A stretch of 64,000 nucleotides of DNA, from positions 4,838,001 to 4,902,000 of the forward strand of contig CM075993.1 of NCBI GenBank assembly GCA_038087875.1, in the 5' to 3' direction. The notes under the pieces were generated by a model that saw only the letters and a program-made list of their open reading frames with translations, was not told the DNA's origin and searched no databases. Origin of the DNA: Malacoraja senta (lineage: Eukaryota). Shown one piece after another: positions 8,117 to 55,624 of this stretch; position 1 is the stretch's first letter, and each line of letters starts with the position of its first letter. Position numbers and translations under genes: made by a program.

Positions 8117-9945
8117 AGAGAAAGAGATTAGTTAAAACAAATGTAGGTCCCTTGCAGTTAGAAACAGGTGAATTGATCATGGGGAACAAGGATATGGCGG
8201 ACCAATTGAATAACTACTTTGGTTCCGTCTTCACTAAGGAAGACATAAATAATCTGCCGGAAATAGCAGGGGGCCGCAGGTCAAAGGAGATGGAGGAACT
8301 GAGTGAAATCCAGGTTAGTCGGGAAGTGGTGTTGGGTAAATTGAATAGATTAAAGGCCGATAAATCACCAGGGCCAGATAGGCTGCATCCCAGAGTACTT
8401 AAGGAAGTAGCTCCAGAAATAGTGGATGCATTAGTGATAATTTTTCAAAACTCTTTAGATTCTGGAGTAGTTACTGAGGATTGAAGGGTAGCAAACGTAA
8501 CCCCACTTTTTAAGAAGGGTGGGAAAGAGAAAATGGGGAATTACAGACCAATTAGTCTAACATCGGTAGTGGGGAAACTGCTAGCGTCAGTTATTAAAGA
8601 TGGGATAGCAGCACATTTGGAAAGTGGTGAAATCATTGGACAAAGTCAGCATGGATTTACGAAAGGTAAATCGTGTCTGACGAATCTTATAGAATTTTTC
8701 GAGGATGTAACTAGTAGAGTGGATAGGGGAGAACCAGTGGATGTGTTGTATCTGGACTTTCAGAAGGCTTTCGACAATGTCCCACATAAGAGATTAGTAT
8801 ACAAACTTAAAGCACACGGTTTTGGGGGTTCAGTATTGATGTGGATAGAGAACTGGCTGGCAAACAGGAAGCAAAGAGTAGGAGTAAACGGGTCCTTTTC
8901 ACAATGGCAGGCAGTGACTAGTGGGGTACCGCAAGGCTCAGTGCTGGGACCCCAGCTATTTACAATTTATATTAATGAGCTGGATGAGGGAATTGAAGGC
9001 AACATCTCCAAGTTTGCGGATGACACTAAGCTGGGGGGCAGTGTTAGCTGTGAGGAGGATGCTAGGAGACTGCAAGGTGACTTGGATAGGCTGGGTGAGT
9101 GGGCAAATGTTTGGCAGATGCAGTATAATGTGGATAAATGTGAGGTTATCCACTTTGGTGGCAAAAACAGGAAAGCAGACTATTATCTAAATGGTGGCCG
9201 ATTAGGAAAAGGGGAGATGCAGCGAGACCTGGGTGTCATGGTACACCAGTCATTGAAAGTAGGCATGCAGGTGCAGCAGGCAGTGAAGAAAGCGAATGGT
9301 ATGTTAGCTTTCATAGCAAAAGGATTTGAGTATAGGAGCAGGGAGGTTCTACTGCAGTTGTACAGGGTCTTGGTGAGACCACACCTGGAGTATTGCGTAC
9401 AGTTTTGGTCTCCAAATCTGAGGAAGGACATTATAGCCATAGAGGGAGTGCAGAGAAGGTTCACCAGACTGATTCCTGGGATGTCAGGACTTTCATATGA
9501 AGAAAGACTGGATAGACTTGGCTTATACTCGCTAGAATTTAGGAGATTGAGAGAGGATCTTATAGAAACGTACAAAATTCTTATGGGGTTGGACAGGCTA
9601 GATGCAGGAAGATTGTTCCCGATGTTGGGGAAGTCCAGGACAAGGGGTCACAGCTTAAGGATAAGGGGGAAATCCTTTAAGACCGAGATGAGAAAAAACA
9701 TTTTCACACAGAGAGTGGTGAATCTCTGGAACTCTCTGCCACAGAGGGTAGTTGAGGCCAGTTCATTGGCTATATTTAAGAGGGAGTTAGATGTGGCCCT
9801 TGTGTCTAAAGGGATCAGGGGGTATGGAGAGAAGGCAGGTACGGGATACTGAGTTGGATGATCAGCCATGATCATATTGAATGGCGGTGCAGGCTCGAAG
9901 GGCCGAATGGTCTACTCCTGCACCTATTTTCTATGTATCTATGTA
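8117..9945 (+). mobile_element. CR1 LINE, 5'-truncated, RT ORF2 with one nonsense codon
   Basis: ORFs 8104..8484 and 8533..9852 in the same frame, split by TGA at 8482-8484 (expected W); KSPGPD, YLDFQKAFD, GVPQGSVLGP, FADD motifs; 3'UTR hairpin GGTGCAGG..CCTGCACC and (TCTATGT)n-type tail. Confidence 0.95.
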
Positions 9946-24438: not shown

Positions 24439-27400
24439 TTTTCAATTTTTTTTTAAAATTTTTATTATTTTTTTATTTATTAGAAGTACATTACATTACA
24501 ACCACATACATTAGTACTCATCACTTATATCTTCTTACAATTAATGTACTCCGTTTGTTTTTTACACTAGTAAAAGGAAAGGATGAGATTGAAAGAAAGA
24601 AGAAAGTGAAGGAAAAAGTGAGAGTGTAGAAAATGTGACAACAAGAAAGAACGAAGACCCTATAAGAACAAAATTAAAAACAAAAGAAAAAGAGTTAAGA
24701 AATAGACCCTAGAAAAGAAGGAGAAAGAGAAAGAGGAAAAAGAGAGAAACAAATAGTTTTTATGAGCATTACGCAAATGGGACATACCAACTCTCCAACT
24801 ATCATCCCCCCTTACCTGACCTCAATTTTTTTTTAAGGTACCTTTGCACCCTATATTTGTAATAATTCTATAAATGCAGACCACGTCAGGTGGAAGTGAT
24901 CTGGTTTACCTGCCAGGAGGAGTCTTATCTCTTCTAGGTGTAATGTTTCGAACATATTTGAAATCCACATGTTTATAGTTGGTATTGGAGCCTTCTTCCA
25001 AAATTTTAGGATTAGCTTTTTTCCAGTTATTAACCCATAGTCTATTAGTTTCTTTTGAAACACATTTAGTTCTGGACTATCTTCCGTTATTCCGAAGATA
25101 ATCCATTCTGCTTTGGGTATCAGCTTTATTTTAAATAATTTTGTAAAGATTTTGAAAATTTCATTCCAACATTTTTGAATTTATGTACAGAAAACAAATG
25201 GGTGCGCTATAGTAGCTTCTTGGGATTGACATTTATCACAAATGGATGATACATTTGGGAAAATGTTATGGATTTTAATTTTGGAATAATATAATCTATG
25301 TAAAATTTTTAATTGTATTAAAGTGTGTCTTACATTAATCGAACATTTATGCACGTTTAATAAGTGTTCATTCCAACTTTCCTTTGAAATTTTAATAGCT
25401 AACTCTTGTTCCCAGTCTCTTCTGATACCCTCCGTAGATGGTATTTCTACATTTAAGATAATATTATACAAATATGATATTAAGTTTGCTGATTCAGCTT
25501 TTATCTGCATTGCCTCATCCAATACATCTGCTGGGTTATTATAATGATCTTTTGTATATTTTTTCAAATAGTCGCATATTTGAAAATATTTAAAATAATG
25601 ATTATTTCCCAGTTTATATTTTATTTGTAATTGTTGAAATGAAAGTAATTTTCCAGTTTCATACAAGTCACCGAACGTTTTAATTCCTAGTCTATCCCAA
25701 TGTGTAAAAGCTTTATCTATAATAGAGGGATTAAACGAAGGGTTATTAACTATGGGTGATAAAAGTGATAAATTTCTTAATTTTAAATTTTGTTTTATTT
25801 GTTTCCAAATTCGGATTGTGCTATGAATAATTGGGTTCTTATTATAATTTATATTATTCAGTTTCATTGGTGAGAGGAGGATCGCTCCAATGTTTCCAGA
25901 GGAGCAATCCTCTTTCTCCATTACAATCCAGTCCACTTGCTGGGCAGAGTTATCCATCAGTTGAATCATATTTTTAATATTTACTGACCAATAATAATAC
26001 ATAAAATTAGGTAGTGCTAAACCCCCTAATACTTTAGGTTTATTCAAGTGAGTTTTTTGTATTCTATGTGATTTATAGTCCCATATAAAATTAGTGATAT
26101 CTGAGTCCAGTTTAAAAAAAAACTTCTTTGGTAAGTATATAGGAATCGATTGAAATAGGTATAAAATTTGTGGTAGAAAGATCATTTTTATTGCATTTAT
26201 TCAGCCTATTAAAGACATCGGGAGCGTTTTCCAGAATTTAATTAATGTGTTTAATTTATTAAGTAGGGGATCAAAATTTGCCTTAAACATACCTTGATAT
26301 GTTCTAGTAATTTCGATTCCCAAGTATTTAAATTTTTCTGTAGCTATTTTAAAAGGGAATTTTAAAAGATGTGTTGAATCTTTCGGTTTTATTGACATAA
26401 TTTCACTTTTATTCCAATTTATTCTATATCCAGAAAAAGATCCAAAGTCTTCAATTAAATTTAATATAGTTGGTATAGTGATTTGAGGTTTTGTAATGTA
26501 CAGTAATATATCATCCGCGTATAAAGATATTTTATTATATGAATCTTTAGTATTATAACCATGGATATCAGGGTGTATTCTAATTTTTTCTGCTAGCGGT
26601 TCAATAATGAGAGCAAAGAACTGTGGTGATAATGAGCATCCTTGTCTATTTCCCCTTGATATTTGGAATTTCGAGGATAATATGTTATTAGTTAATATTC
26701 TAGCTGTAGGTTTATTATATAATAATTTGATCCATAGAATAAAATTCTCTCCCAGTTGGAATTTTTGTAATACTTTATCCATATAATTCCATTCTACTTG
26801 GTCAAATGCTTTTTCAGCATCCAGCGAAATAATTGATAATTCTTGATCTTCAGATTTGTGTGAGTGCATTATGTTGAGTAAACGTCTCATATTGTTAGAT
26901 GAGTATCTCTTAGGGATAAACCCCGTCTGATCTGGGTTTATTAATTTACTAATGTATTTACTTAATCTTCTAGCTAATGTTTTCGCTAATATTTTTTGAT
27001 CTGTGTTTAACAATGCTATAGCTCTATATGAACCCGGTTCTTCTAAATCTTTGTCTTTCTTAAGTATTAGTATAATCGTTGATTCCGCTAATGTATCAGG
27101 TAGTATTTGTTTTTTAAAAACATATTGGTACATTTTTTGTAATCTAGGTATTATTTTATCATAAAAGCTTTTATAAAATTCATTAGTAAATCCATCAGGA
27201 CCTGGTGTTTTTCCATTCTTTAGTGAGTTTATTGTATCTTCTAATTCCTTAATTGAAATTTGTGCACCCAATTCCTCTTGTTCCTTCAGCTCTAACTTTG
27301 GAAGATTACAATTATCCAAAAACTTTGTGATATTATTGGAATCAATTGTCGTTTTAGATGTATACAAATTCTCATAAAATTGCGCAAATCTTTTATTAAT

Positions 27401-27472
27401 ATCCTTCGGTGTTGTTAATAATTCCCCTTTATCTGATTTAATCTTTGGGATAGTATGTTCCTTTTCTCGTTT
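24439..27472 (-). mobile_element. L1/Tx1-clade LINE, 5'-truncated, frameshifted ORF2 (RT and C-terminal CCHC region)
   Basis: ORFs 26201..27367 (KTPGPDG, LDAEKAFD, GNRQGC, YADD), 25181..26185, 24851..25063; TSD TTTAGAATTCT at 24428-24438 and 27473-27483. Confidence 0.93.
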
Positions 27473-27483
27473 TTTAGAATTCT

Positions 27484-28398
27484 AAAAGACAGATGGTGTA
27501 TACCTTTTATATATACACAATTCGTCGATTAACGTTAGACATACGTTAAATCCAATTTAAAATACTGCATAGACTCTACTATTCAAAGTCTAAACTGCAT
27601 AAGATCTTTCCAAATGTATCTCCTATTTGTGACAAATGTCTCCTTCAAGAAGCAACTATAACACATTCCTTCGCCTTGCATAAAATTACATAATTTTTGG
27701 AGAGGAATTTTTGAAATTCGCTCAAAAACACTAAAAACAAAATTGGACCCCGACACGGAATTGATTATTCTAGGAACGTCAGAAGCCTGCTCTGAGCTAT
27801 CAATATTTCAAATTTCCTCAATTATTTCCTCAAATATTTCAATATTTCCTCAATTATGGCCTGATAACGGCGAAAAAAACGAATACTCAAATTTTTAAAC
27901 ATACATCTGTCCCTACTCTTAAAATGTGGATTACAAACATGTCTGAGACGCTACATCTTGAAAATATTAGACTTGTCTTAGCAGAAAAACCAGGGCATTT
28001 TTCGAAGACATGGACACCATTCATTGATTTATTACAAGGATAGTATGGTACAACACAATGTTGGAGTTAAATCTAATTACGGGTTGGGTGATGGGTGGGG
28101 AGGGATGCGAGGCAGGTATATCATCACCTTTTGTTTTTCTTTCTGTTTTTTGTCTTTTTATTTCTCGACGTCTTCCTTATTTCTTTTACTTACTCACTCG
28201 TTGGCTACACTAGTTTGGCAGTCTAGGGGTTCTATCCTTGCACATTCCACTTTTTCTCTCTCTTGCTTTTTCTCTCTTCTTTTCTCTTAACTATAGCTAA
28301 AAGTCAAAATGGAAGCTGCACAATAACTGTATTATGTCATATGCCGCTGGTTATATTTTTGTACACTTGTTTCTAATAAATTAAAAAAAAAAATAATA
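27484..28398 (+). mobile_element. Related L1/Tx1-clade 3' fragment, decayed
   Basis: encodes ..FKILHRLYYSK..ICDKC.. like the adjacent minus-strand element; AATAAA plus poly-A at ~28375. Confidence 0.8.
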
Positions 28399-29112
28399 AT
28401 AAGTTGAGTTTACTGTCAAAGGCATAAGTACAGTGAGGTACAGGTACAATGACGATCTTGCAGCAACTTCACAGGCACAATAAACTAAGCTAATACACTC
28501 TTGATTTCCTATGGAGCTTTTTAACATACAAGGTCTAACTAATCTATGATGAGGAAGTGTTTGCAGTTTTTAAAATGAAATGAATTTTATCTGGTTGCCA
28601 CTCCACCATCTTTCTTTTTGAATGGTCCTGTGATGTTCCTCCATCTACAGGTTCGATCCTGACCTCGGGTGCTGTCTGTGTGCAGTTTGCACGTTCCCTT
28701 ATGATCACGTGGGTTTCCTCCGGTTCCCTCCCATACTTCCTCATCATAGATTAGATTTAAATAACAATTAGATTTTGTAGTCAATGCCTCCTATGTTCTG
28801 TTGTGCTGAAGCAAAGCAAGAATTTCATTGTCCTATCAGGGACACATGACAATAAACTCTCTTGAACTTGAACTTGAGGTTAAAAAGCTCCATAGGAAAT
28901 CAAGAGTGTATTAGCTTAGTTTAGATTATTGTCACATGTACTGAGGTACAGTGAAAAACATTTTTGGTGCGTGCTGTTCCAGTCACCAGAAAGACTATAC
29001 ATGATTATGATCAAGCTGTCAACAGTGTACAGATACAGGATTAAGTGAATAAGTTTAGTGCGAGGTAAAGTCCGATGAATGATTGCCCGAGGGTTTCCAA
29101 TGAGGTAGATAG

Positions 29113-37145: not shown

Positions 37146-37237
37146 TAAGTATTTTGATGGGGGTTAAACAGTGTCACTATGGGTGAAGAATATGAGGGTG
37201 GATTTAATGATTCTTGCTGCACCTTTGGCTATTTCAG

Positions 37238-37344
37238 AGCTGGAAAATATCGGAAACCTACACATTCAGCTGGGTGCTGACCTAAAAGAGGAGGCAAGGC
37301 GACTGGAGGATTTCCGAGAGAGGCAGAAGGAGACACGGAAGAAG
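37238..37344 (+). CDS. PSTPIP1: PSTPIP1 exon 5 ([35 protein letters not shown])
   Basis: within ORF 37171..37368; acceptor atttcag, donor GTAAAA. Confidence 0.95.
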
Positions 37345-37501
37345 GTAAAAATGATGATAGAGTCATAGAGTGACACAGTGCGGAAACATGCCCTTTGGCC
37401 CAACTTGCCCACGCCGGCCAACATGTCCCAGCTACACTAGACCCGACTGTCCGCGTTTGACCCATACCCCTCCAAACCTGTCCTATCCATGTACCTGTCT
37501 A

Positions 37502-38081
37502 CGTTTCGGCGCCACTGGTTCGGCGCCTCCATTTATAATATCTGTACTCATCAGAACCCTATCCCTAACCCTAACGCTAACCCTAACCCGAACCCTAACC
37601 CTAACCCTAACCCTAACCCTAACCCTAACCCTAACCCTAACCCTAACGCTAACCCTAACCCGAACCCTAACACTATCCCTAACCCTAACCCTAACCCTAA
37701 CCCTAACCCTAACTCATCAGAACCCTATCCCTAACCCTAACCCTAACCCTAACCCTAACCCTATCCCTAACCCTAACCCTAACCCTAACCCTAACCCTAA
37801 CCCTAACCCTAACCCTATCCCTAACCCTAACCCTAATCCTAACACTAACCCTAACCCTAACCCTAACCCTAACCCTAACCCTAACCCTAACCCTAACCCT
37901 AACCCTAACCCTAACCCTAACCCTAACCCTATCCCTAACCCTAACCCTAATCCTAACACTATCCCTAACCCTAACCCTAACCCTAACCCTAACACTATCC
38001 CTAACCCTAACCCTAATCCTAACACTATCCCTAACCCTAACCCTAACACCCCAAAACGGCAGCGCCGAATGGTACCATTCC
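37502..38081. mobile_element. Putative non-autonomous element carrying telomeric repeats, 9-bp TSD
   Basis: ACCTGTCTA at 37493-37501 and 38082-38090; interrupts a minus-strand CR1 3' fragment. Confidence 0.6.
37555..38047. repeat. Interstitial telomeric repeat (CCCTAA)n with variant units
   Basis: ~490 bp of CCCTAA with CCCTAT, CGCTAA, CCCGAA, CACTAT and TCCTAA variants. Confidence 0.98.
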
Positions 38082-39409
38082 ACCTGTCTATCTGCTTCTT
38101 AAACATTGCAATAGTCCCTGCCTCAACTACCACCTCTGGCAGCTCGTTCCGAACACCCGCCACCCTTTGTGGGAAGTGGTTACCCCTCAGATTCCTATTA
38201 ACTCTTTTCCCCTTCACCTTAAACTTATGGACGGTAACTTGGAGATTTTGAGAGGCTGTTGTTGTAATGACCAGGGGCTGGGTCACGTTTGTGCAGGGTG
38301 GGGCCCGTTCCACATTTGCAGATGGTTCTAAACTACAATGTGAAGAGCCTTTGCTCATTCTAACAGACAAAAGTAACTTCAAATCTTCTCTGGCAAACCC
38401 TGAGCGTTTAGATTTCCGCTGGTCACAGCGACAGGGAAACAGGCTGGGCTGTACCGTGTGTTTCTGATCGTACAAGGAAGTGACGTCTATAAAACAACTT
38501 GAGAAACTTGTAAAACAACTTGTAGAAACAAGGAACTGTAGACGCTGGTGCACCAAAGACAAACATGCATAAAGTGCTGGAGTAATTCAGCGGGTCAGGC
38601 AACATCCTAGGAGAACTGAAGGGTCTCAACACGAAACGTCACTCAAGACAGTACAAGACAAGAGACATTTATTGTCACATGTACTAATTGGTACAGTGAC
38701 ATTTGTGGTCACCAAGTTCAAGTTCAAGTTCAAGTGAGTTTATTGTCATGTGTCCCTGATAGGACAATGAAATTCTTGCTTTGCTTCAGCACAACAGAAC
38801 ATGGTAGGCATTGACTACAAAACAGATCAGTGTGTCCATATATCATTATATACGTAAATACACACATGAATAAATAAACTGATAAAGTGCAAATAACAGA
38901 TAATGGGCTATTAATGTTCAGAGTTTTGTCCGAGCCAAGTTTAATAGCCTGATGGCTGTGGGGAGGTAGCTATTCCTGAACCTGGTCGTTGCAGTCTTCA
39001 GGCTCCTGTACCTTCTACCTGAAGGTAGCAGGGAGATGAGTGAGTGGCCATACAGCCATACGAATAAATAAGAGCACAGAACAAAATAGTCTTTAACATA
39101 GACATCCCCACACAGCGGAATCAAAGTTTCCCATTGTGAGGGAAGGCCCAAAGTTCAGTCATCCTCATCTTTGATGTTCTTTGATGTTCACCCATTCCTT
39201 CTCTCCAGAGATGCTGCCTGTCCCACTGAGTTACTCCAGCATACAGAGCCTATATCCCAGGAGAGCATGTGTAGGTGATACGTTCACTACAAACATTCCA
39301 GTGCTGTGCCATATTAAGATAATCACTTGATCTCTCATTAATAAGTTCTATTTGTGTGGTCTATTGGTAAATTGGTGCATTTTTAATAGAAGCACATCTT
39401 TTCCAACAG

Positions 39410-43837: not shown

Positions 43838-44373
43838 GAGTCAGAGACTGATATAGTGTGGAAACAGGCCCTTCGGCCCAACTTGCCCATTCCAGCCAAC
43901 ATGTCCCAGCTGCACTAGTCCCACCTGCCTGCATTTGGTCTATATCCCTCCAAACCTGTCTTTTCCATGTATCTGTCCAACTGTTTCATAAATGTTGGGA
44001 TAGTCCCAGCCTCAACTAACTCCTCTGGCAGTTTGTTCCATATACCCACCATCCTTTGTGTGAAAAAGTTACCCCTTGGATTCCTATTAAATCTTTTCCC
44101 CTTCACCTTGAGCCTATGCCCCCTAGACCTCGATTCCCCCACTCTGGGCAAGAGATTCTGTGCATCTACCCGATCTATTCCTCTTGTGATCTTATACACC
44201 TTTATAAGATCACCCCTCATCCTCCTGCGTTCCAAGGAATCGAGTCCCAGTCTACTCAACCTCTGTCTATAGCTCGGACCCTCTAGTCCTGGCAACATCC
44301 TCGGAAATCTTCTCTGAACCCTTTCAAGCTTGACAATATCTTTCCTATAATATGGTGCCCGGAACTGAACGCA
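43838..44373 (-). mobile_element. CR1 3' fragment (third subfamily)
   Basis: ORF 43915..44400 LERVQRRF...RGDLI...NFFTQRMVGIWNKLP. Confidence 0.88.
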
Positions 44374-45064
44374 ATACATGTGAATAATATAACTGGACAT
44401 ATCTGAGGAAGGATGTGCTGGCTCTGGAGAGGGTCCAGAGGAGGTTCACAAGAATGATCTAAGGAATGAGTAGATTAACCTATGATGAGCATTTGTCAGC
44501 ACAGGGCCTGTACTCGCTGGAGTTTAGAAGAATGAGGGGGGGGGGGGGGTGGACCTCATTGAAACATACAGAATAGTGAAAGGCTTGGATAGAGTGGGTG
44601 TGGAGAAGATGCTTCCACTAGTGGGAGAATCTAGGACTAGCGGTCATACCGAGCCACCAATCTCCCTTGAACAATTGTCTTGCAGACCAAGTGCCAGGTT
44701 CAATACTTGGCCAAATCTCTGCTGGTTGATTTGAAGATACTTCAATTCAAGAGTCAAGAGTTTTTTATTGTCTTACGTCCCAGATAGAGCAATGACATTT
44801 TTACTTGCAGCAGCAGAACAGAATATGGGAACATAGTAAACAATATAACAAATGAGAGAGAAAAAAAAGTTCAGTATGTGTGTATAGACACATACTCACA
44901 AGCACACACACACACACACACACATATATAACATAGAAACATAGAAAATAGGTGCAGGAAGAGGCCATTCGGCCCTTCGAGCCTGCACCGCCATTCATTG
45001 TGATCATGGCTGATCGTCCCCAATCAATAACCCGTGCCTGCCTTCTCCCCATATCCCTTAACTC

Positions 45065-45911
45065 TTCGGTGGGCGGCGCGACTCTCGTCAGCAGCGGCCT
45101 CTGCAGTCCGTCTGTCTTTTTATTATTTTTGTCTCGTTTTTGTGTAGTTTTTATTATATTTTTGTCGGGGTATGTCTGTGGGGGGGGGGGGGGACTTTGA
45201 AATCTTTCCCCTGCACGGGAGACCCGACCTTTTCTTTGTCGGGTCTCCGTTGTCGTTGGGGCTGGGCAACGTGGAGCGGCCTCCAGCAGGAACGACCTGG
45301 GGCTCCAGTTGCGGAGCTGCGGACTACTCACCGTCACGGGGCTGGCCGAGTCCGGAGCGGGTGGAGCTGTGGTGGAGACAATCGCTGCTGCTACCCGACC
45401 CCCGGAGATTCGGAGGCTACAACCGCGGGTCTGGCGGACGGCAACACCGGAAGCCCGCGGGTCCCCTGGGGGGAGACCGCTTTTCGGGGCTTCCGCAGCG
45501 GCGACTTCTCCCGCCCGAGTTGCGGGGTTGAAGAGCACCTGGAGCGGGTCTTTATCCCCCCGCGCGGCTTGGAATGGCCGCCGAACTTTGCGGGCGCGCG
45601 CCGGGGCTCTAACACCAAGACCCGGTGCGCGACCTTGCATCACCCGGCGTGGCTTTAATGGCCGCGGGATAATCACCATCGCCCGCCGGGGGCTTTGACT
45701 TTGACTCTGACATCGGGGGGGGGGGGAGTGCAGTGGAGAGAGAAGTTTTTTTTTGCCTTCCATCACAGCGTTGTGATGGATGGATGTGTAAATTGTGTTG
45801 TGTCTCGGGTCTTCTTCGTTTTGTATTGTATGGCTGCAGAAACGACATTTCGTTTGGACCTCAAGGGGTCCAAATGACAAATTTGTCCAAAAGACAAATA
45901 AAATTGAATTG
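45065..45911 (+). mobile_element. Unclassified CpG-rich non-coding retroposon
   Basis: interrupts a CR1 3'UTR, flanked by AACTC (45060-64, 45912-16); 3' hairpin TTTGGACC..GGTCCAAA, AATAAA and (ATTGA)n tail. Confidence 0.6.
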
Positions 45912-45937
45912 AACTCCACTAGCCCCTAGAGCTCTAT

Positions 45938-45942
<5 letters not shown>

Positions 45943-45984
<42 letters not shown>

Positions 45985-46003
45985 TGCACACATACGTACA
46001 CAC
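45943..46003. repeat. (TA)n(CA)n microsatellite
   Basis: directly visible. Confidence 0.9.
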
Positions 46004-46175
46004 AAAAAACAAACAATAATAGCGCAATAATAACAATATTAATCCATGTAGTTCAGAGCTTATTTGAGGTTGTAGTGTTTTATAGCTGAATGGCTGTAGG
46101 GAAGAAGCTGTTCCTGAGCCTGGACATTACAGTTTTCAGGCTCCTGTACCTTCTTTCCGATGGCAGTGGTGAAAT

Positions 46176-46906
46176 AATAGATTAATAATAATAGATTTAT
46201 TTTATATAGCGCTTTTCAGGACTCAAAGTCGCTTTACAATTGAGAGTCAGGAATAAACAAAACAAAATAGAGCAGTAAGACAGAGGGGAGGGGAACATGG
46301 GACTAAGGGTATGCAGAGGTGAAGAGATGGGTCTTGAGGCGGGACTGGAAGATGGTGAGGGACTCAGAATTTCGGACCGGTTGTGGGAGGGAATTCCAGA
46401 GCCTGGGAGCTGCCCTGGAGAAGGCTCTGCCTCCAAAAGTGCAGAGGTTTGAATTCGGAGTGGAGAGGAGACCAGCTGATGTGGATCTGAGGGACCGTGA
46501 GGGTTGGTAGGGGGGAGAGGAGGTCAATGAGATAAGGGGGGGCCAGGTTGTTGAGGGCTTTGTAGGTGAGGACCAGGATTTTGTAGGTGATCCGGTGGGA
46601 AATGGGAAGCCAGTGAAGTTCTTTGAGAACTGGGGTGATGTGGTGCCAGGAGTTGGTGTGGGTAATGAGTCGGGCGGCTGCATTCTGGACCAGTTGGAGT
46701 CGTTTGATGCTGCTGGAATTGATTCCGAAAAGAAGAGAGTTACAGTAGTCCAGTCGGGAGGAGATGAAGGCATGGATGAGTCTTTCAGCAGCGGGGGGTG
46801 TGAGAGACGATCTGATTTTTGCAATGTTGCGGAGGTGAAAAAATGATGTTTTGACAACATGGCGGATGTGAGGCTCAAGGGAGAGGGTTGAGTCAAGGAT
46901 CACGCC
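46176..46906 (-). mobile_element. L2-clade LINE 3' fragment
   Basis: LEPHIRHVVKTSFFHLRNIAKIR...SSRLDYCNSLL...LQLVQNAAARL...LHWLPI; tail AAAGCGCTATATAAA..(TAT)n. Confidence 0.9.
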
Positions 46907-47548
46907 AATGAGAGCGTGGCCAGGGTGGTGTGGGTCTCTGATGATGCCGGCTGCCTTTTTGAGGCAGCGATTCCGGTAAATCCCTTGGATAGTGGGGAGG
47001 TCAGAGCCGGAGATGGACTGGGGAGTGGTCACAACCTTTTGCAGTCTTCTTCGCTTCTGGGCACCCAACGTTGCCGAACCGGGGCATGACCGGAATGGCT
47101 GTGGCCAGCTTTTGCTCTCTGATCGCTGCATGACTACAGTCAAGGGACTGTGCCAGTGTGAATGGAGGCACAAGAGACTGTAGATGCTGAAATCTGGAGC
47201 AAAGCACAAAGTGCTGGAGTGACTCAACGGGTCAGGCAGCATCGGTGGAGGTAAATGGGCAAGGTGACGTTTTGGGTTGGGTCTGAAGAGGGTCCCGACC
47301 TGAAATGACGTCTGTCCATTCCATCCTTGGATGCTGCCTGACCCACTGAGGTCCTCCAGCACTTTGTGGTTGCCACAGTGAATGATGGGCAAGGATAGGC
47401 ATAATGTTGGCTGCTTTACCACCCAAAGTTCAACCATTTGCTTAATAATTGGGAGAGTAAAGTCAATGACCTTCTGTATTCAACCCTGATCCTGCATTTC
47501 ATGAACAAAACAGTGTCTACAATGGTGATGTCTCTGTCTGCTCCACAG

Positions 47549-47594
47549 TGTCAGAACAAGGTCAAGCAGTCTCACGAGTCGGCGGGAGATGCGG
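47549..47594 (+). CDS. PSTPIP1: PSTPIP1 exon 8 (CQNKVKQSHESAGDA)
   Basis: acceptor ctccacag, donor GTATGT; 46 nt keeps frame. Confidence 0.9.
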
Positions 47595-47713
47595 GTATGT
47601 ACCATCAGCTCTCTTGGTCTTTGGATAATGTGTCGCATGAATTGGGATTTGGCCGCTCGCCCAATCCTTGGTTTGGTTTCATTCTAGCACCTTACTCTGA
47701 AAATTTGTTCCAA

Positions 47714-48102
47714 GATCTTATAGAAACGTACAAAATTCTTAAGGGGTTGGACAGGCTAGATGCAGGAAGATTGTTCCCGATGTTGGGGAAGTCCAGAACA
47801 AGGGGTCACAGTTTAAGGATAAGGGGGAAGTCTTTTCAGACCAAGATGAGAAAATCATTTTTCACACAGAGAGTGGTGAATCTCTGGAATTGTCTGCCAC
47901 AGAAGGTAGTTGAGGCCAGTTCATTGGCTATATTTAAGAGGGAGTTAGATGTGGCCCTTGTGGCTAAAGGGATCAGGGGGTATGGAGAGAAGGCAGGTAC
48001 AGGATACTGAGTTGAATGATCAGCCATGATCATATTGAATGGCGGTGCAGGCTCGAAGGGCCGAATGACCTACTCCTGCATCTATTTTCTATGTTTCTAT
48101 GT
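47714..48102 (+). mobile_element. CR1 3' fragment
   Basis: DLIETYKILKGLDRLDAGR...GYGEKAGTGY* plus 3'UTR. Confidence 0.9.
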
Positions 48103-54502: not shown

Positions 54503-55624
54503 CATAGAAACATAGAAACATAGAAACATAGAAAATAGGTGCAGGAGTAGGCCATTCGGCCCTTCGAGCCTGCACCGCCATTCAATATGATCATGGCTGA
54601 TCATCCAACTCAGTATCCCGTACCTGCCTTCTCTCCATACCCTCTGATCCCTTTAGCCACAAGGGCCACATCTAACTCCCTCTTAAATATAGCCAATGAA
54701 CTGGCCTCGACTACCCTCTGTGGCAGAGAGTTCCAGAGATTCACCACTCTCTGTGTGAAAAAAGTTCTTCTCATCTCGGTTTTAAAGGATTTCCCCCTTA
54801 TCCTTAAGCTGTGACCCCTTGTCCTGGACTTCCCCAACATCGGGAGCAATCTTCCTGCATCTAGCCTGTCCAACCCCTTAAGAATTTTGTAAGTTTCTAT
54901 AAGATCCCCTATCAATCTCCTAAATTCTAGAGAGTATAAACCAAGTCTATCCAGTCTTTCTTCATAAGACAGTCCTGACATCCCAGGAATCAGTCTGGTG
55001 AACCTTCTCTGCACTCCCTCTATGGCAATAATGTCCTTCCTCAGATTTGGAGACCAAAACTGTACGCAATACTCCAGGTGTGGTCTCACCAAGACCCTGT
55101 ACAACTGCAGTAGAACCTCCCTGCTCCTATACTCAAATCCTTTTGCTATGAAAGCTAACATACCATTCGCTTTCTTCACTGCCTGCTGCACCTGCATGCC
55201 TACTTTCAATGACTGGTGTACCATGACACCCAGGTCTCGCTGCATCTCCCCTTTTCCTAGTCGGCCACCATTTAGATAATAGTCTGCTTTCCTGTTTTTG
55301 CCACCAAAATGGATAACCTCACATTTATCCACATTATACTGCATCTGCCAAACATTTGCCCACTCACCCAGCCTATCCAAGTCACCTTGCAGTCTCCTAG
55401 CATCCTCCTCACAGCTAACACTGCCCCCCAGCTTAGTGTCATCCGCAAACTTGGAGATGTTGCCTTCAATTCCCTCATCCAGATCATTAATATATATTGT
55501 AAATAGCTGGGGTCCCAGCACTGAGCCTTGCGGTACCCCACTAGTCACTGCCTGCCATTGTGAAAAGGACCCGTTTACTCCTACTCTTTGCTTCCTGTTT
55601 GCCAGCCAGTTCTCTATCCACATC
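54503..55624 (-). mobile_element. CR1 LINE, 5'-truncated, open RT frame
   Basis: ORF 54610..55623 (GVPQGSVLGP, FADD); (CATAGAAA)n tail. Confidence 0.95.

What the first reader, a model, noticed from the sequence alone, without database searches (positions are those of the whole stretch)
37493..38090. Telomeric array packaged as a transposon-like cassette with a 9-bp TSD
Seen: a 580-bp insert (37502-38081) splits a CR1 3' fragment and is flanked by a perfect ACCTGTCTA duplication. About 490 bp is (CCCTAA)n with ordered variant units and an internal duplication of ACTCATCAGAACCCTATCCCTAACCCTAA (37546, 37712). The ends are unique: TTCGGCGCC twice on the left, the inverted GCGCCGAA on the right, then a perfect 14-bp palindrome GAATGGTACCATTC (38067-38080). 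Inference: this is unlike a simple telomerase-healed break. It looks like a non-autonomous element (9-bp TSDs suggest Mutator-like) that disperses telomeric repeats, placing potential shelterin-binding and G-quadruplex sequence ~160 bp downstream of PSTPIP1 exon 5.
Basis: partly seen in the sequence, partly recalled or inferred. Interest (0 to 1): 0.72.

Follow-up and report, generated by a model that had tools for sequence, protein, structure and literature searches.

The report
Mini-transposon carrying telomere repeats
This is a short, gene-less cut-and-paste jumping element whose middle is a 490-base run of telomere repeats, sitting in an intron of a vertebrate gene, which suggests that some telomere-like stretches inside chromosomes arrive as transposon cargo rather than by repair of breaks.

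Summary
In detail: a 580-bp insert (37502-38081) with a perfect 9-bp duplication splits a LINE 3' fragment whose paralogues run straight through. The array has 80 hexamers, 63 of them canonical, and grew by block slippage. The ends are degenerate inverted repeats built of 14-bp units (0 of 400 shuffles reach this). The right end adds a 9-nt GG-starting cap inside the palindrome; the left end lacks that cap. This is the layout of foldback-type Mutator-like elements (Muta1, Tm1). In public DNA contigs the left end is multi-copy in two of four runs (30 and 27 contigs share one variant; summed depth is hundreds of times single-copy depth). Four small elements with the same end grammar, 8-9-bp duplications and short CCCTAA tracts occur in one animal-like metagenome assembly. 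Best reading: a non-autonomous foldback MULE whose internal CCCTAA tract expanded. Not shown: the transposase, the right end's copy number, array length in other copies, or any effect on PSTPIP1. It is a variant of a known kind, of moderate interest as a route to interstitial telomeric repeats.

The parts
37238..37344 (+). PSTPIP1-like exon (107 bp) upstream of the insert; context, not part of the element
   Evidence: translation matches PSTPIP1 residues 87-121, E 4e-9; AG/GT borders read
37357..37501 (-). host LINE (CR1-like, label recalled) 3' fragment, left part
   Evidence: 70-86% identical to unsplit window paralogues; about 28,000-29,000 contigs laid per run
37493..37501 (+). left copy of the 9-bp target site duplication
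37502..37529 (+). left end: two 14-bp subterminal repeat units, each with TTCGGCGCC; no terminal cap
   Evidence: multi-copy in runs X19 and X6
37530..37556 (+). short AT-rich spacer; most other copies read G at 37531, which would start a third, partial repeat unit
   Evidence: table 3
37557..38046 (+). (CCCTAA)n array: 80 hexamers (63 canonical) plus a 10-nt piece copied from the left end
37546..37877 (+). 166-bp tandem block duplication (37546-37711 / 37712-37877, 156 of 166 identical) that includes non-telomeric left-end sequence
38045..38072 (-). right end: two inverted 14-bp subterminal units, the inner one degenerate
38067..38081 (.). right terminal motif: 14-bp perfect palindrome (38067-38080) overlapping a 9-nt cap that begins GG on the minus strand
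38082..38090 (+). right copy of the 9-bp target site duplication
38082..38229 (-). host LINE 3' fragment, right part; in frame with the left part

Best explanation
The insert is a non-autonomous cut-and-paste DNA transposon (MITE-like) of the foldback type of the Mutator superfamily. A transposase encoded elsewhere binds the 14-bp subterminal repeats and the palindromic terminal motif, excises the element and joins it to a staggered 9-bp cut, which host repair fills in as the duplication (inferred from Muta1 biochemistry). The CCCTAA tract is internal cargo that this group of elements carries just inside its ends. Here it grew to 80 units by slippage or unequal exchange of blocks, not by telomerase. 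The left end lacks the 9-nt cap of the right end. Most likely (about 60:40) this copy lost the cap by a deletion between two TA dinucleotides and is now immobile; otherwise the family has asymmetric termini. Shown: clean insertion with duplication, repeat-built inverted ends, multi-copy left end, block duplications. Inferred: superfamily, transposase, order of events.
For: (1) 9-bp duplication against empty paralogues. In four runs 451, 312, 431 and 501 contigs leave the window sequence at 37501 and continue as the unsplit host repeat. (2) The best repeat register over periods 12-17 is period 14 with offsets 0 (left) and 9 (right): 51 of 84 pair matches, 0 of 400 shuffles. Left versus reverse-complemented right end match 16 of 26 at offset 9 and at most 9 at the 15 other offsets. 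(3) Left end 37514-37568: summed depth 7,800-18,800 in X19 against 40 on the unique exon, and 4,900-39,000 in X6 against 47. G at 37531 is seen in 30 (X19), 27 (X6) and 1 (X2) contigs. X19 record 16 is another copy (8 differences in 69) with 13 unmatched letters before it. (4) Muta1 has 8-9-bp TSDs, a 10-bp terminal palindrome, 12-bp subterminal repeats and over 300 non-autonomous derivatives with varied interiors. Tm1 has 9-bp TSDs, about 14-bp repeats (9 of 14 matches to the first unit here) and non-inverted caps, and some elements lack one cap. (5) L023, L051, L070 and L072 are 118-165-bp GG...CC elements with TTCGGCGC at position 12 of both ends, 2-6 CCCTAA units and 8-bp exact or 9-bp one-mismatch duplications; L051 lies beside an Ig V-set ORF. 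(6) The 166-bp duplication copies non-telomeric sequence, which telomerase would not template. (7) The multi-copy left end lies on the distal side of the G-strand, where a natural telomere has no flank (sequence).
Against: No transposase was found: no genome is held, and 0 of 20 window ORFs hit a transposase family. The left end does not begin with GG and lacks the terminal motif that Muta1 needs for end joining. The inverted repeats are short (about 28-37 bp) and degenerate, whereas typical MULE TIRs exceed 100 bp. The right end's copy number and the TSDs of other copies were not tested. Summed contig depth is not a copy number by the tool's own statement. The junction contig in X19 (37474-37544, 0 differences, depth 36) has only 28 letters on the flank side, under the tool's 31-letter rule, and X19 may be the source sample. 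The metagenome analogues are 4 of 107 loci (84 distinct), all from one assembly, found with a pattern that demanded CCCTAA; they have no 26-nt match to the left end at 3 mismatches (0 of 107). Merlin shares GG termini, 8-9-bp TSDs and internal tandem repeats.
Confidence: 0.72

Rival explanations
1. The same kind of non-autonomous DNA transposon, but mobilised by another superfamily with 8-10-bp duplications (Merlin or AcademH).
For: Merlin has 5'-GG TIRs of 24-462 bp, 8-9-bp TSDs, internal tandem repeats and sometimes very imperfect TIRs. AcademH makes 9-10-bp TSDs.
Against: A terminal palindrome plus repeats of 12-15 bp is described for Muta1 and Tm1. A search of the Merlin paper's 11 supplements for five motifs returned 20 passages, none showing these ends. 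AcademH termini were not checked because the paper is not held.
Confidence: 0.15
2. A piece of an existing multi-copy repeat that already held telomeric units was captured at a staggered double-strand break, so this copy did not transpose. The missing left cap would be the trace of that.
For: The left end lacks a cap. Duplications and added sequence occur at repair-born interstitial telomeric sites (4.6-16% duplications, 16-17% additions).
Against: The right end stops exactly at a GG-type terminus and the left end exactly at the start of a repeat unit. Matches of other copies start at about 37500-37502 (inferred table 3). No target bases are lost.
Confidence: 0.07
3. A telomerase-made or subtelomere-derived interstitial telomeric site, with or without a TERC fragment.
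For: 490 bp of vertebrate telomere repeat; this route is documented in mammals.
Against: No telomerase RNA hit in Rfam at E up to 10 (2 chance-level hits to other families). 17 of 80 units are variants, in repeated blocks. Both ends are related inverted repeats. The multi-copy end is on the distal side of the G-strand.
Confidence: 0.03
4. A non-autonomous Helentron (HINE) carrying a microsatellite.
For: An inverted repeat 3 nt from one end, a palindrome at the other end and a central tandem repeat resemble HINEs.
Against: HINEs make no duplication and sit in T runs. Here there is a perfect 9-bp duplication and no T run, and the 3' inverted repeat is 12 nt from the end rather than 38-60.
Confidence: 0.02
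5. Assembly artefact.
For: The right junction and the array length were not checked against reads.
Against: A 71-bp contig with 0 differences crosses the left junction at depth 36 against 40 single-copy (28 letters on the flank side). An artefact would not create a duplication and matched inverted ends.
Confidence: 0.01

Closest known systems
Muta1 family (type-2 foldback MULE, Aedes aegypti) and its non-autonomous derivatives; PMC5499845, PMC5225508 (passages read)
   Same: 8-9-bp TSD; palindromic terminal motif followed by subterminal tandem repeats; many non-coding derivatives with truncated ends and unrelated interiors.
   Different: No sequence homology was tested.
Tm1 (Mutator/Foldback, Phantom subclass, root-knot nematodes); PMC3169594 (passages read)
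   Same: 9-bp TSD; about 14-bp repeat units (9 of 14 matches between one Tm1 consensus and the first unit here); non-inverted caps outside the repeats; some copies lack one cap.
   Different: Tm1 caps are 7+3 nt and not described as palindromic; no telomeric array appears in the passages read.
Merlin non-autonomous elements; PMC8101967 (passages and one supplement part read)
   Same: GG terminus (right end here), 8-9-bp TSD, internal tandem repeats, imperfect TIRs.
   Different: The left end here has no GG; the palindrome-plus-repeat layout does not appear in the passages read.
Short interstitial telomeric sequences from break repair, including TERC-ITS; PMC2246262 (passages read)
   Same: Telomeric array inserted into a repeat, sometimes with a target duplication.
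   Different: Here both ends are inverted repeats, at least one is multi-copy, there is no TERC match, and the array is built of duplicated variant blocks.
HINE/DINE-1 (non-autonomous Helentrons); PMC4067079, PMC7492417 (passages read)
   Same: Subterminal inverted repeats, 3' palindrome, tandem-repeat cargo dispersed by a mobile element.
   Different: No TSD and a TT target in HINEs; a 9-bp TSD here.
Telomere-Bearing Elements of Oxytricha (Tc1/mariner); search listing and abstract start only
   Same: A DNA transposon associated with host telomeric repeats.
   Different: Different superfamily; their repeats lie at the termini and their TSD is short (recalled), whereas here the array is internal with a 9-bp TSD.

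Membership tests
MULE (foldback type) | TSD of 8-11 bp | tested here: met
   9 bp at this copy; range
MULE (foldback type) | inverted ends built of 9-15-bp subterminal tandem repeats | tested here: met
   period 14, 0 of 400 shuffles; only 2 units per end
MULE (foldback type) | terminal motif at both ends (palindromic in Muta1) | tested here: inconclusive
   present at the right end, absent at the left end of this copy; the family state is unknown
MULE (foldback type) | long TIRs (over 100 bp typical) | tested here: not met
   about 28-37 bp, degenerate. Typical, not universal: 2 of 14 Aedes families have TIRs under 60 bp and derivatives are often truncated
MULE (foldback type) | dispersed copies with the same two ends and different TSDs | tested here: inconclusive
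   left end multi-copy, one copy with an unmatched flank; right end and TSDs not seen
MULE (foldback type) | autonomous partner with a MULE DDE transposase | not testable with these tools
   no genome held; none among 20 window ORFs
Merlin | 8-9-bp TSD | tested here: met
Merlin | TIRs with terminal 5'-GG | tested here: inconclusive
   the right end starts GG, the left end starts CG
Merlin | DDE_Tnp_IS1595 partner | not testable with these tools
   no genome held
AcademH | 9-10-bp TSD | tested here: met
AcademH | characteristic termini | not tested
   paper not held
Helentron/HINE | no TSD, insertion in T runs | tested here: not met
   9-bp TSD, no T runs
Helentron/HINE | subTIRs plus 3' palindrome with characteristic spacing | tested here: inconclusive
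   5' spacing fits (3 nt); 3' spacings do not (12 vs 38-60 nt; 1 vs 8-35 nt)
Repair-born ITS / TERC-ITS | telomerase RNA fragment beside the array | tested here: not met
Repair-born ITS / TERC-ITS | locus-specific, unrelated junction sequences | tested here: not met
   ends are inverted relatives; left end multi-copy

The most novel reading that the evidence does not exclude
A recently amplified foldback-MULE family has scattered hundreds of telomeric arrays, each hundreds of bases long, through the chromosome arms of this vertebrate lineage. Transposition would then be the main source of its short interstitial telomeric sequences. The CCCTAA tract would be an old, kept trait of this transposon group across animals, possibly because telomere-binding proteins loaded next to the ends help pair or shield them during transposition.
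Probability: 0.22. Interest if true: 0.68.

Novelty: new variant of a known kind. Interest (0 to 1): 0.42.

Why it matters
The account of short interstitial telomeric sequences that I read (passages of PMC2246262) explains them by break repair, and chromosome fusion is the other usual explanation (recalled). A multi-copy transposon that carries the repeat as cargo is a further route. It would mislead karyotype inference from telomere FISH, telomere-length estimates from reads and telomere calling in assemblies of these animals. It would also give many near-identical arrays at independent sites, a natural test of whether internal TTAGGG tracts bind shelterin, stall polymerases or mark fragile sites. 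The element type itself, and tandem repeats riding in non-autonomous elements, are already known.

Tried and rejected
No genome is held for this window, so the direct search for other copies was impossible; neither end recurs in the window. Exact-pattern scans found nothing in viral contigs or prokaryote genomes. Most are GC-rich contigs with scattered CCCTAA and no matching second end; L057/L074 is a coding region and L052 lies by a histone gene, so their GG-at-12 pattern is treated as chance. Run X1 shows no cover on the left end although it holds the exon and the start of the host repeat, and X2 shows a single contig; a filter drops some records, so this is not used as evidence of absence. 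The orthologous empty site in relatives could not be seen because contigs break inside the host repeat. The shuffle test used too short a right end, missed the real register and gave 2 of 300; one search replaces it. The right end does not fold better than shuffles (z -1.4); the left end does (z -2.9), through its self-complementary GGCGCC copies. Earlier-findings look-ups showed nothing on this locus or family. Ten paper searches listed no title or abstract start describing a vertebrate DNA transposon with an internal TTAGGG array; most listed papers were not opened. Repbase and Dfam could not be searched, and the Phantom, AcademH and one review paper are not held, so the family may already be catalogued. 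Passages of PMC6431247, PMC6947457 and PMC10767889 gave nothing specific. FISH found no interstitial telomeric sites in three sharks (PMC7648076 passages); these are probably other species and 0.5-kb arrays may be below detection.

Full report
Observation. The insert is 580 bp (37502-38081) between two copies of ACCTGTCTA. Five loci in the window matched both flanks. I aligned four of them, and all four run straight through the site with one copy of the 9-mer or a variant of it. In four public DNA runs 451, 312, 431 and 501 contigs part from the window at 37501 and go on as the unsplit repeat. So the duplication is real and no target bases were lost. The host repeat lies on the minus strand and translates in frame across the site like an unsplit paralogue; calling it CR1 is recalled. 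The exon at 37238-37344 matches PSTPIP1 and ends 157 bp upstream. The exon number and the guess that the animal is a cartilaginous fish are recalled, not tested.

The array. 37557-38046 holds 80 hexamers, 63 of them CCCTAA, plus a 10-nt piece of the left end; the longest pure run is 13. Variant units recur in blocks: 156 of 166, 30 of 30, 59 of 60 and 53 of 54 identical positions for four block pairs that I chose by eye. The largest block includes non-telomeric sequence. This points to growth by slippage or unequal exchange inside the element; telomerase would add only the template repeat (established knowledge). Rfam shows no telomerase RNA in 37200-38400. The minus strand holds 13 non-overlapping G-quadruplex motifs and 59 TAGGGTT cores. 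It is the template strand of PSTPIP1, so the pre-mRNA carries the C-rich repeat.

The ends. The 8-bp inverted match alone is weak (70 of 5000 shuffles), but the ends share more. Searching periods 12-17 and all offsets, the best register is period 14, starting at base 1 of the left end and base 10 of the reverse-complemented right end: 51 of 84 pair matches, reached by 0 of 400 shuffles. The two ends match at 16 of 26 positions at offset 9 and at most 9 at the other 15 offsets. So each end is two 14-bp units, and the right end has an extra 9-nt cap that starts with GG and forms the outer half of the 14-bp palindrome (0 of 5000 shuffles). The left end has no cap.

Copy number. No genome is held, so I laid contigs of four public runs on 37150-37568 (4 of the 24 runs listed). 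X19 matches the unique part with 0 differences at depth 40. On the element's left end (37514-37568) its summed depth is 10,914, 18,836, 17,191 and 7,826 per bin. X6, about 96% alike on its exon contig, gives 4,934 to 38,959 against 47. The tool states that such sums are not copy numbers, so I read them only as 'many'. Independent of depth, 30 contigs in X19, 27 in X6 and 1 in X2 read G at 37531 where the window has A, and X19 record 16 is a second copy (8 differences in 69 letters) preceded by 13 unmatched letters. X1 has no cover there, which is not evidence because records are filtered. A 71-bp X19 contig crosses the left junction with 0 differences at depth 36, though with 28 flank letters it falls short of the tool's 31-letter rule, and X19 may be the source sample. 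The multi-copy end lies on the distal side of the G-strand, where a natural telomere has no flank, so it is not a subtelomere junction.

Analogues. Most are noise. Four, all from one assembly, are 118-165-bp elements with GG...CC termini, TTCGGCGC at position 12 of both ends, further short subterminal repeats, 2-6 CCCTAA units inside, and duplications of 8 bp (exact, L023) or 9 bp with one mismatch (L051, L070, L072). One lies beside an Ig V-set ORF, so the host is probably an animal. The CCCTAA content was demanded by the pattern; the symmetric ends and duplications were not. They count as one independent case and are analogues, not close homologues (0 of 107 loci match the 26-nt left end at 3 mismatches).

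Mechanism. The layout matches foldback-type Mutator-like elements. Muta1 has 8-9-bp duplications, a 10-bp palindromic terminal motif and 12-bp subterminal repeats. Its transposase binds both, the palindrome aids binding, the terminal motif is needed for end joining, and over 300 non-autonomous derivatives carry varied interiors (passages of PMC5499845 and PMC5225508). Tm1 has 9-bp duplications, about 14-bp repeats and non-inverted caps, and some copies lack one cap (passages of PMC3169594). I therefore infer a non-autonomous element moved in trans by a MULE transposase, with a CCCTAA tract that later expanded. For the missing left cap I see two readings. The duplication and the right cap both end in TA, so a 9-nt deletion between two TAs would remove the cap and leave a perfect duplication; X19 record 16 starting its match at 37500 fits this. 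Alternatively the family is asymmetric. The from_end values, which I calibrated on other rows as distance to the end of the laid part, put match starts at about 37500, 37501 and 37502 in three runs, which fits either reading. I lean 60:40 to loss in this copy.

Membership. It works like a foldback MULE derivative, but membership is not proven. The duplication and repeat-built ends are met; long TIRs are not met; the cap is on one end only; the partner transposase could not be sought (none among 20 window ORFs). Merlin (passages and part 1 of 2 of one supplement of PMC8101967) and AcademH (one passage in PMC10045372) remain possible. Repbase assigns non-autonomous elements by TSD length and the first 11 terminal bases (passage of PMC4455052), a test I could not run. 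HINEs fail on the duplication (passages of PMC4067079 and PMC7492417). Repair-born telomeric insertions can have duplications (4.6-16%; passages of PMC2246262) but would not explain related, multi-copy ends.

Novelty. Foldback MULE derivatives and tandem repeats riding in mobile elements are known. A vertebrate family whose cargo is the host telomere repeat did not appear in ten searches, judged from titles and abstract starts. Repeat databases, subscription papers and bioRxiv supplements were out of reach and may hold it. Other copies are shown to continue only into the first 12 nt of the array, so family-wide dispersal of long arrays is likely but open. Verdict: real, a new variant of a known kind, interest 0.42.

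Noticed in passing
L023:2306-2423, L051:2939-3057, L070:623-787, L072:221-339: A family of 118-165-bp elements with GG...CC inverted ends, short subterminal repeats, internal CCCTAA units and 8-9-bp duplications in one animal-like metagenome assembly.
   Followed up: partly
L043 (about 1390-1496), L092, L006/L036: A second small family with GG-type inverted ends around a degenerate CCCTAA tract; duplications look like decayed 8-mers (7 of 8 in L043, 6 of 8 in L092, read by eye).
   Followed up: partly
many of L001-L107 (GC 60-79%): GC-rich marine contigs peppered with short CCCTAA and TTAGGG tracts in both orientations, several next to CAGGT/AGGT motifs that may be splice junctions, as if the repeats fill introns.
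   Followed up: no
window 8485-9852, 26201-27481, 54610-55623: Three ORFs with reverse transcriptase domains (Pfam RVT_1), probably LINE copies.
   Followed up: no
window 43915-48010: A cluster of seven ORFs of 165-374 codons on both strands without Pfam hits, probably a decayed retroelement.
   Followed up: no
window 37361-38251 (+): A 296-codon stop-free frame runs through the insert because the array reads as Pro-Asn repeats; its Pfam hit to Trypan_PARP is far below the curated cut-off and spurious.
   Followed up: yes
L004:1602-2661: ORFs that look like a rolling-circle Rep of a small circular DNA virus (resemblance recalled, not tested), next to a short CCCTAA tract.
   Followed up: no
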